Sequence record: PQ352352.2
Reading direction: 5' to 3' (one strand)
DNA from: Escherichia phage vB_EcoM_PTE-Eco15
DNA length: 64,000 bases
Translations under genes and position numbers: made by a program
Shown: in pieces, positions 10,922-10,950 of the stretch
How the letters are laid out: every line of letters begins with the position of its first letter
Position numbering within the stretch: the stretch's first letter is position 1
Notes under the pieces: model-generated
Told to the model about the DNA's origin: nothing
The model's database searches: none
Seen by the model: only the letters and a program-made list of their open reading frames with translations

Positions 10922-10950
10922 ATTCAGAAGGGGCCGAAGCCCCTCTCCTT
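10922..10950 (-). promoter_or_regulatory. structured translation-initiation region of gene 38: SD (AAGGAG) - hairpin (GGGGC-UUCG-GCCCC) - AUG
   Basis: on - strand TAAGGAGAGGGGCTTCGGCCCCTTCTGAAT precedes the ATG; hairpin shortens an otherwise ~24-nt SD-AUG distance. Confidence 0.55.

What the first reader, a model, noticed from the sequence alone, without database searches (positions are those of the whole stretch)
10922..10950. Split ribosome-binding sites: SD and start codon separated by a UUCG-type hairpin at gene 38, and again at denA (32584-32614)
At both sites the stop codon of the upstream gene is fused to an SD (TAAGGAG), followed by a perfect GC hairpin and then 7-8 nt before the AUG. 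The linear SD-AUG distance (~24 nt) is too long for initiation unless the hairpin folds, which makes translation of gene 38 and denA structure-dependent. This is known for T4 gene 38; the denA case uses the same architecture.
Basis: partly seen in the sequence, partly recalled or inferred. Interest (0 to 1): 0.4.

Follow-up and report, generated by a model that had tools for sequence, protein, structure and literature searches.

The report
Hairpin-bridged ribosome-binding sites, genes 38 and denA
Two genes of this T4-like phage, tail-fibre chaperone gene 38 and nuclease gene denA, keep their ribosome-docking sequence about 24 bases too far upstream with a tight RNA hairpin in between; this is the published arrangement for gene 38, and for denA it appears to be an undescribed, widely conserved second copy of the same design.

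Summary
Site 1 lies on the minus strand. Each site reads upstream stop codon fused to UAAGGAG, then a 16-nt hairpin (6 bp plus tetraloop), then 7 nt, then AUG. UAAGGAG occurs only twice in the window, at exactly these sites. One correction: the gene 38 loop is UUCG, but the denA loop here is GCAA.

Gene 38 is the textbook T4 split ribosome-binding site (22 nt reduced to 5 nt; review PMC3014915). I found no published description of the denA case.

At the nrdB-denA junction, 41 of 42 related loci (24 distinct sequences, DenA identity 58-99%) keep the order SD, hairpin, 6-10 nt, AUG. The stem covaries: 95% of cells paired, 24 double-change cells against 7.1 in shuffles (0/500). No SD follows the hairpin.

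Other intercistronic hairpins in the window, and T2-type gene 38, use the usual order hairpin, SD, AUG.

The T4 reference annotates denA from a GTG inside the hairpin. Comparative data and PDB 2WSH favour the AUG.

In T4-type phages the denA hairpin also looks like a weak intrinsic terminator, but that property is not conserved. Whether denA translation depends on the hairpin is inferred, not shown.

Verdict: a known kind, with a probable new member. Interest is modest.

The parts
10945..10951 (-). UAAGGAG: gene 37 stop codon (UAA, 10951-10949) fused to the Shine-Dalgarno sequence for gene 38
   Evidence: The predicted duplex with the anti-SD is -8.1 kcal/mol.
10929..10944 (-). Hairpin AGGGGC-UUCG-GCCCCU (6 bp, C(UUCG)G tetraloop) between the SD and the AUG of gene 38
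   Evidence: Free energy is -11.2 kcal/mol and the stem P(unpaired) is about 0.02-0.05. It is kept in 8 of 8 T4-type 37-38 junctions examined, with one G-C to A-U compensatory change in Mosigvirus.
10922..10928 (-). 7-nt spacer UCUGAAU, with no SD-like sequence
10370..10921 (-). Gene 38 (T4-type gp38 tail-fibre assembly chaperone, 183 aa); AUG at 10921-10919
32582..32588 (+). UAAGGAG: nrdB stop codon (UAA, 32582-32584) fused to the Shine-Dalgarno sequence for denA
   Evidence: The predicted duplex is -8.0 kcal/mol. An AGG/GGA element 0-3 nt 5' of the stem is present in 22 of 24 junction variants and is partly inside the stem in the other 2.
32589..32604 (+). Hairpin UGGGCC-GCAA-GGCCCA (6 bp, GNRA tetraloop) between the SD and the AUG of denA
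   Evidence: Free energy is -11.6 kcal/mol and the stem P(unpaired) is about 0.00. Covariation across 24 variants: 95.1% of cells paired, 4 of 6 pairs with compensatory changes, 24 double-change cells against 7.1 +/- 2.0 in shuffles, 0/500.
32605..32611 (+). 7-nt U-rich spacer UUUUAUU; no SD; it doubles as a terminator-like U-tract
   Evidence: terminator discriminant +24.7 for this window.
32612..33022 (+). denA (endonuclease II, GIY-YIG, 136 aa) starting at AUG 32612, not at the in-frame GTG 32588 used in AF158101.6
   Evidence: PDB 2WSH begins at MKEI. An in-frame upstream start exists in only 4 of 24 variants.

Best explanation
Both sites are hairpin-bridged ("split") ribosome-binding sites. 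A strong SD (UAAGGAG, overlapping the stop codon of the upstream gene) lies 23 nt from the AUG, which is too far for a 30S subunit to hold both at once. A very stable 16-nt tetraloop hairpin folds out of the path and leaves an effective spacing of about 7-8 nt, so the SD-bound 30S can place the AUG in the P site.

Site 1 is the orthologue of the published T4 gene 38 element. Site 2 (nrdB-denA) is a second element of identical geometry, conserved across T4-like phages of many genera.

Because each SD overlaps the upstream stop codon, a ribosome finishing gene 37 or nrdB melts the 5' arm of the hairpin. The hairpin then refolds behind it. Initiation is therefore probably also coupled to upstream translation.

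In T4-type phages the denA hairpin plus its U-run probably also acts as a leaky terminator or 3' stabiliser for nrdB mRNA. Both effects would keep synthesis of this nuclease low.

What is shown here: the anatomy, the spacing, the covariation, and the absence of any canonical SD. What comes from the literature: structure-dependence at gene 38. What is inferred: structure-dependence at denA, the coupling to upstream translation, and the terminator role.
For: - Both sites have the same geometry: 7 nt + 16 nt + 7 nt.
- The only two UAAGGAG heptamers in the window are these two sites.
- Neither gene has a usable SD at the normal distance.
- Gene 38 is a published case (PMC3014915).
- 41 of 42 nrdB-denA loci, giving 24 distinct sequences, keep the order SD, hairpin, 6-10 nt, AUG.
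- The linear distance from the A of GGA to the AUG is 22-28 nt. With the hairpin removed it is 6-13 nt, mostly 7-10.
- Variants with a 7-bp stem (L014; Mosigvirus gene 38) have longer linear spacing but normal effective spacing.
- The stem covaries strongly. Only the core hairpin is conserved in a 106-nt context.
- Contrast cases use the usual order stop, hairpin, SD, AUG: at least six other intercistronic hairpins in the window, T2-type gene 38 in RB14, and distant denA homologues L088/L090.
- In one lineage (L029) the SD and the hairpin are lost together and replaced by an nrdB/denA ATGA overlap. This suggests the module serves denA translation and its coupling to nrdB.
- DenA protein is detectable in T4 infection (supplement of PMC9697503).
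Against: - There is no experimental test for denA.
- Predicted ensembles partly pair the SD: GGAG with UUUU through G-U pairs, P(unpaired) 0.2-0.26. They also partly pair the AUG: P(unpaired) 0.01-0.35, through weak A-U/G-U helices with the nrdB 3' coding sequence. These pairings show no covariation and are not conserved.
- Linear distance is at least as constant as effective distance across the family. Descent without indels would give the same result, so the spacing argument is not decisive.
- The window's denA hairpin passes a classical terminator discriminant.
- L029 shows that denA can be expressed with no SD at all.
- In two variants (L033/L034) the SD-like GAGG lies partly inside the stem.
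Confidence: 0.62

Rival explanations
1. The denA hairpin is primarily an intrinsic terminator and/or a 3'-exonuclease barrier that ends and stabilises nrdB mRNA. Its position next to an SD-like UAAGGAG is incidental. denA would be made at a low level from read-through transcripts without help from the hairpin.
For: A GC stem followed by UUUUAUU gives a discriminant of +24.7, third highest among the tetraloop hairpins of the window. Several GenBank records annotate a terminator at this junction. T4-type phages carry many intercistronic GC tetraloop hairpins. A weak internal terminator in the same nrd region (mobE) has been shown experimentally (PMC2790892).
Against: Terminator-likeness is not conserved: only 9 of 23 junction variants score above 0, and L033/L034 have no U-tract. 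By contrast, the order SD, hairpin, AUG is conserved in all of them. The stem starts 4 nt after the nrdB stop codon, inside the footprint of a terminating ribosome. The consensus scan did not call a terminator here. This reading does not explain the perfect 7-nt SD placed 5' of the stem or the absence of any SD 3' of it, whereas at least six other hairpins in the window have their SD downstream. The gene 38 hairpin scores below 0 in all variants.
Confidence: 0.15
2. Termination-reinitiation is the main route. Ribosomes that finish nrdB (or gene 37) stay on the mRNA, held by the SD that overlaps the stop codon, and restart at the AUG 27 nt downstream. The hairpin matters only because it shortens or blocks the path. 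De novo 30S binding would be minor.
For: The stop codon is fused to the SD at both sites. The L029 lineage replaces the whole module with an ATGA stop/start overlap, the classical coupling arrangement. Gene 26/25 also overlap, as TAATG. In phage Lv5cm the second hairpin copy follows the stop codon of an 18-codon ORF and has no SD.
Against: A stable hairpin between stop and start should hinder scanning rather than help it. According to the review, the gene 38 and gene 25 effects are attributed to SD-AUG spacing, and gene 25 was tested with reporter fusions. This rival is not exclusive of the main explanation.
Confidence: 0.15
3. The hairpin is a negative element. It keeps the SD out of reach, or sequesters SD and AUG in an extended helix, so that the toxic nuclease DenA is translated poorly.
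For: The minimum-free-energy folds extend the stem through GGAG:UUUU and pair the AUG region. In L030-L034 a GAGG lies in the 5' arm of the stem.
Against: The extended pairs show no compensatory change, and 4-9 of 24 sequences break each of them. Long-range helices are not conserved. The identical design at gene 38 is reported to enhance initiation.
Confidence: 0.06
4. denA starts at the in-frame GTG at 32588, as annotated in AF158101.6 and NC_000866. The hairpin would then be coding sequence, and there would be no split ribosome-binding site.
For: The T4 reference annotation gives a CDS of 435 nt starting 3 nt after the nrdB stop codon. The ORF is open from the GTG.
Against: An in-frame upstream start codon exists in only 4 of 24 junction variants. 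The GTG overlaps the SD, leaving zero spacing. The eight extra codons are not conserved as protein. The crystallised enzyme (2WSH) starts at MKEI.
Confidence: 0.02

Closest known systems
T4 gene 38 translation initiation region (split SD/AUG bridged by a C(UUCG)G hairpin; Nivinskas et al. 1999, as reviewed in PMC3014915)
   Same: Site 1 is this element: same junction (37-38), same UAAGGAG, same UUCG hairpin, same AUG. Site 2 has the same geometry nucleotide for nucleotide in length: 7 + 16 + 7.
   Different: The window's gene 38 stem has one more C than T4 (GCCCC against GCCC), giving a perfect 6-bp stem. Site 2 lies at a different, early-gene junction (nrdB-denA), has a GCAA loop, and has a U-rich tail.
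T4 gene 25 split ribosome-binding site at the 26-25 junction (Nivinskas 1999; Malys & Nivinskas 2009, via PMC3014915)
   Same: The principle is the same: a distant SD is brought from 27 nt to 11 nt by an intervening stem-loop, at a junction with the upstream gene. It is also present in this window, at the AUG at 54862.
   Different: The gene 25 stem is A-U-rich (CUCAAAG/CUUUGAG) with a weaker SD, and the 26/25 stop and start overlap (TAATG). According to the review it is restricted to close T-even phages. The denA module extends to much more distant genera.
Intercistronic GC tetraloop hairpins and intrinsic terminators of T4-type phages (for example the mobE internal terminator, PMC2790892)
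   Same: A short GC stem, a UUCG or GNRA loop, and an A-rich 5' and U-rich 3' flank. The window holds about 17 intergenic examples.
   Different: In those cases where a start codon follows closely, the SD of the next gene lies downstream of the hairpin. At gene 38 and denA the SD lies upstream, and the AUG follows only 7 nt after the stem.
Translational coupling by stop/start overlap (ATGA)
   Same: Both serve expression of a downstream gene directly behind the upstream stop codon. One lineage (L029) uses ATGA at nrdB/denA in place of the module.
   Different: In the overlap arrangement no SD and no structure are involved.

Membership tests
Hairpin-bridged (split) RBS, T4 gene 38/25 type | SD complementary to the 16S 3' end, located more than 15 nt upstream of the start codon | tested here: met
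   UAAGGAG lies 23 nt before the AUG at both sites. Predicted duplex energies are -8.0 and -8.1 kcal/mol.
Hairpin-bridged (split) RBS, T4 gene 38/25 type | No functional SD at the canonical 5-10 nt distance | tested here: met
   The spacers UCUGAAU and UUUUAUU contain no SD. The best duplex in the -20 to -3 window is -1.7 and -3.0 kcal/mol. This holds for all 24 denA junction variants.
Hairpin-bridged (split) RBS, T4 gene 38/25 type | Stable intervening stem-loop that reduces the spacing to a functional value | tested here: met
   The hairpins are 16 nt with free energies of -11.2 and -11.6 kcal/mol and stem pairing probability of about 1. Effective spacing is 7-8 nt here and 6-13 nt across the family.
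Hairpin-bridged (split) RBS, T4 gene 38/25 type | Structure maintained in evolution (compensatory changes) | tested here: met
   denA: 4 of 6 pairs show double changes, and 0 of 500 shuffles reach the observed value. Gene 38: one G-C to A-U double change among 4 stem variants, which is weaker evidence.
Hairpin-bridged (split) RBS, T4 gene 38/25 type | Stem disruption lowers translation and compensatory mutation restores it | not testable with these tools
   Reported for T4 genes 38 and 25 in the review. I found no data for denA in 8 literature searches.
Intrinsic (Rho-independent) terminator | GC-rich stem followed immediately by a U-tract | tested here: inconclusive
   denA in the window: UUUUAUU, discriminant +24.7. 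Gene 38: UCUGAAU, discriminant -21.4. The consensus scan called neither site.
Intrinsic (Rho-independent) terminator | The terminator property is conserved among orthologous junctions | tested here: not met
   Only 9 of 23 denA junction variants score above 0. L033/L034 lack a U-tract.
Intrinsic (Rho-independent) terminator | Transcript 3' ends map to the U-tract | not testable with these tools
   I found no T4 3'-end mapping data.
C(UUCG)G tetraloop hairpins | UUCG loop closed by a C-G pair | tested here: met
   This row is met for gene 38 only (GC-UUCG-GC). It is not met for denA in this window or in T4, where the loop is C-GCAA-G. 19 of the 24 denA junction variants from other phages do have UUCG.

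The most novel reading that the evidence does not exclude
The nrdB-denA hairpin could be a bifunctional, ribosome-gated element. When a ribosome sits on the nrdB stop codon, 4 nt upstream, the hairpin cannot form and RNA polymerase reads through. On those read-through transcripts the refolded hairpin then bridges the SD and the AUG. Synthesis of the host-DNA-degrading nuclease would thereby be licensed only on mRNAs whose ribonucleotide reductase cistron is being actively translated. This would be a combined attenuator and split ribosome-binding site, conserved across Straboviridae.
Probability: 0.12. Interest if true: 0.55.

Novelty: new member of a known kind. Interest (0 to 1): 0.3.

Why it matters
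Split ribosome-binding sites are cited as rare curiosities, with T4 genes 38 and 25 as the examples. A third case would matter for four reasons:
- It would have exactly the gene 38 geometry.
- It is conserved, with covariation, over a much wider range of T4-like phages than gene 25. That would show the design is a reusable, selectable module rather than an accident.
- It corrects the start codon of denA in the T4 reference annotation: 136 aa from the AUG, not 144 aa from the GTG.
- It gives gene finders and RBS calculators a concrete pattern to recognise.

It would also bear on how a potentially toxic nuclease is dosed relative to nrdB.

The gene 38 half of the finding adds nothing new.

Tried and rejected
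- **GTG start of denA (reference annotation).** Rejected on frame conservation and on PDB 2WSH.
- **Extended helix GGAG:UUUU, and long-range pairing of the denA AUG with nrdB coding sequence.** Both are predicted by single-sequence folding. Neither shows covariation, and RNAalifold does not recover them.
- **Rfam.** Only sub-threshold noise: ceN47 and L20_leader.
- **Literature.** No description of a denA split ribosome-binding site in 8 full-text searches. Six key papers were looked up by identifier and are not held in the library: PMC150520, PMC526816, PMC279771, the two DOIs 10.1111/j.1365-2958.2009.06840.x and 10.1007/s11033-011-0707-4, and with them the primary sources I recall as Miller 2003, Tseng 1990, Tuerk 1988, Malys & Nivinskas 2009 and Malys 2012. 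A prior mention therefore cannot be excluded.
- **A false lead.** One search hit (PMC12483538) matched "denaturing", not denA.
- **T4 3'-end or Term-seq data.** None found.
- **Whole-T4 census.** I started it and abandoned it. My strict scan misses the weaker gene 25 case, so a genome-wide count made with it would not be reliable.
- **Consensus terminator scan.** It called neither site, because it extends the denA stem through G-U pairs into the U-run.
- **Notebook error.** The correct coordinates are 10929-10944.

Full report
**What the window is.** The window is a T4-like Tequatrovirus read in the opposite orientation to the T4 GenBank record. The 37-38-t region and the nrdB-denA region match T4 at 95-99% identity.

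**Check of the observation.** Site 1 is on the minus strand. It reads 5'-GCA UAA GGAG | AGGGGC UUCG GCCCCU | UCUGAAU | AUG-3'. The gene 37 stop codon is at 10951-10949, the hairpin at 10944-10929, and the gene 38 AUG at 10921-10919. Site 2 is on the plus strand. It reads 5'-UUU UAA GGAG | UGGGCC GCAA GGCCCA | UUUUAUU | AUG-3'. The nrdB stop codon is at 32582-32584, the hairpin at 32589-32604, and the denA AUG at 32612-32614. The T4 junction is identical to site 2.

Both sites have the same dimensions: a 7-nt UAAGGAG that contains the upstream stop codon, a 16-nt hairpin (5 G-C pairs, one A-U pair, a tetraloop), and a 7-nt spacer. In both, 23 nt separate GGAG from the AUG.

**Is it more than chance?** UAAGGAG occurs only twice on both strands of the window, fewer than the 7.3 +/- 2.8 expected from shuffles, and both copies are these sites. 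Scored in the normal -20 to -3 window, genes 38 and denA have almost no SD: -1.7 and -3.0 kcal/mol against a typical -5 to -7 for about 98 ORF starts. The upstream heptamers give -8.1 and -8.0 kcal/mol.

The window holds 25 perfect GC-rich tetraloop hairpins. Most of the UUCG and GNRA ones are intergenic. At least six of them are followed closely by a start codon, and in every one the order is stop, hairpin, SD, AUG; examples are at 2156, 2373, 5036, 23831, 41184 and 56458(-). Only genes 38 and denA have the order SD, hairpin, AUG. A generalised scan (G-U pairs allowed, loops of 3-8 nt) found only these two, plus one false positive inside an ORF. That scan is strict. It misses the known, weaker gene 25 site, which is also in the window.

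**Folding.** The two hairpins have free energies of -11.2 and -11.6 kcal/mol. Their stems are essentially always paired in contexts of +/-40 to +/-100 nt. Single-sequence folding also predicts weak extra pairings:
- GGAG with the U-run (through G-U pairs) at denA;
- the denA AUG region with nrdB coding sequence;
- CAUA with UAUG at gene 38.

None of these is supported comparatively. The extended denA helix shows no compensatory change and is broken in 4-9 of 24 sequences per pair. RNAalifold on a 106-nt alignment keeps only the core hairpin.

**Comparative evidence, denA.** Two scans of IMG/VR with DenA returned 42 loci with at least 58% protein identity, giving 24 distinct junction sequences. 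In 41 of the 42 loci the junction reads nrdB stop, A/GG-rich SD (UAAGGA, UAAAGGA, UAAGGU and similar), a GC hairpin of 4-7 bp (loop UUCG in most), 6-10 nt, then AUG. No SD follows the hairpin in any of them.

Stem sequences differ widely: UGGGCC, GGGAC, GGGGC, GGGAGAC, AAAGGGC, UAGGGC, CAGGGC, AGGGCC, GAGGGC and others. On the MAFFT alignment, 95.1% of cells are paired, against 79.2 +/- 2.0% in shuffles. Four of six pairs show changes on both sides. There are 24 double-change cells against 7.1 +/- 2.0, reached by 0 of 500 shuffles, and register-shift controls collapse.

The linear distance from the A of GGA to the AUG is 22-28 nt. Without the hairpin it is 6-13 nt, mostly 7-10. A variant with a 7-bp stem (L014) has a longer linear distance but a normal effective distance. 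Linear distance is itself very constant, as expected from descent without indels, so spacing alone does not discriminate between hypotheses.

**Natural variants.** Three natural variants are informative:
- In L029, the SD and the hairpin are both absent, and nrdB and denA overlap as ATGA.
- In distant homologues L088/L090 (51% identity, a different upstream gene), a hairpin follows the upstream stop codon and denA has its own SD, GAGGAAAGG, downstream of it.
- T2-type gene 38 (RB14), an unrelated protein at the same map position, has hairpin, then GGAG, then 8 nt, then AUG.

The order SD, hairpin, AUG is therefore a specific, maintained state and not the default.

**Comparative evidence, gene 38.** Eight T4-type 37-38 junctions from Tequatrovirus, Dhakavirus and Mosigvirus keep UAAGGAG, hairpin and AUG. 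The stem variants are GGGGC/GCCCC, GGGGC/GCCC (T4) and AAGGGAC/GUCCCUU, which includes one G-C to A-U double change. The loops are UUCG, UUAG or UUCU.

**Which start codon for denA?** AF158101.6 and NC_000866 annotate denA from the GTG inside GGAGUGGGCC, giving 144 aa. I reject this start for four reasons:
- Only 4 of 24 variants have any in-frame start codon between the nrdB stop and the AUG.
- The eight extra codons are not conserved.
- The GTG abuts the SD with zero spacing.
- The crystallised enzyme (2WSH) begins at MKEI, and the Glu-to-Ala substitution seen in its alignment falls at residue 118 when numbered from MKEI. I recall the entry as the E118A mutant, which would fit that numbering; this is from memory, not from a tool result.

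**Literature.** The review PMC3014915 states that for T4 genes 38 and 25 the extended SD-AUG spacing is brought to a functional distance by an intervening structure: 22 to 5 nt for gene 38 and 27 to 11 nt for gene 25. It also states that destabilising mutations reduce initiation, citing Nivinskas et al. 1999 and Malys & Nivinskas 2009. I found no mention of denA in this context in the searchable library. Several key subscription papers could not be read, so prior mention cannot be excluded. DenA protein is detected in T4-infected cells (supplement of PMC9697503).

**Terminator question.** I used a d'Aubenton-Carafa-type discriminant as a relative ranking only, because modern energy parameters were substituted for the original ones. 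The window's denA hairpin scores +24.7, third among the window's tetraloop hairpins. Gene 38 scores -21.4. Some GenBank records annotate a terminator at the denA junction.

Only 9 of 23 family variants score above zero, and two have no U-tract, whereas the SD, hairpin, AUG geometry is conserved throughout. The stem begins 4 nt after the nrdB stop codon, within the footprint of a terminating ribosome. I conclude that termination or 3' stabilisation may be an added role in T4-type phages but is not the conserved function.

**Mechanism and confidence.** The best explanation, at confidence 0.62, is that both sites are hairpin-bridged ribosome-binding sites. Gene 38 is the known case and denA is a probable new member. 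Coupling to upstream translation and a leaky-terminator role at denA are plausible additions. The rivals are:
- terminator or stabiliser only (0.15);
- reinitiation as the main route (0.15, not exclusive of the main explanation);
- a repressive structure (0.06);
- the GTG start (0.02).

**Novelty and interest.** Half of the finding is textbook. The other half is a new member of a known kind. It is well supported comparatively but untested experimentally, and it brings a small annotation correction. Interest is 0.3.

Noticed in passing
window 54820-54864 (+): The known split ribosome-binding site of gene 25 is also in this window. It reads AGAGG, then the stem CUCAAAG-aguu-CUUUGAG, then the gene 26 stop codon overlapping the gene 25 start as TAATG (AUG at 54862). 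The finding does not mention it, and my strict scan did not detect it.
   Followed up: partly
window 32588-32611 (+); T4 AF158101.6 137951-137928: The T4 reference records start denA at a GTG inside the hairpin (144 aa). Frame conservation (in-frame upstream start in 4 of 24 variants) and PDB 2WSH indicate that the AUG at 32612 (136 aa) is the real start.
   Followed up: yes
window 28186-31354 (+): nrdA is split into two ORFs. One is 477 aa (ATP-cone, RNR N-domain, barrel profile positions 1-221). The other is 329 aa (barrel positions 219-523). Between them lies a 236-aa ORF (29665-30375) with an I-HmuI-like NUMOD domain, which looks like a free-standing homing endonuclease. T4 has an intact nrdA. 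The arrangement resembles the mobE-split nrdA of Aeromonas phage Aeh1.
   Followed up: partly
window 31406-32584 (+): nrdB is a single uninterrupted 392-aa ORF. The group I intron with I-TevIII that is present in T4 is absent here.
   Followed up: no
L046 (Salmonella phage Lv5cm MZ150757.1) 745-860: There is a tandem duplication of about 78 nt covering the hairpin, the AUG and the first 18 codons of gene 38. The annotated gene 38 start follows the second hairpin copy and has no SD. The first copy would encode an 18-aa ORF ending at a UAG at the base of the second hairpin. This is either a natural reinitiation arrangement or an assembly artefact.
   Followed up: partly
L023 1465-1503 compared with window 10951-10916 (-): The denA junction of the L023 clade (TAAGGAGAGGGCCTTCGGGCCCTTCTGTTATGAAA) matches the gene 38 junction of this window (TAAGGAGAGGGGCTTCGGCCCCTTCTGAATATGAAA) at about 31 of 36 positions. 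I could not decide between convergence in a small sequence space and transfer of a cassette.
   Followed up: no
L029 (IMGVR_UViG_2974786931) 1495-1510: In one T4-like lineage nrdB and denA overlap by ATGA, with no SD and no hairpin. The whole module has been replaced by classical stop/start coupling.
   Followed up: yes
window, both strands: UAAGGAG is under-represented: 2 copies observed against 7.3 +/- 2.8 in dinucleotide-preserving shuffles. Most genes in the window use shorter SDs of the GAGG or AGGA type.
   Followed up: no
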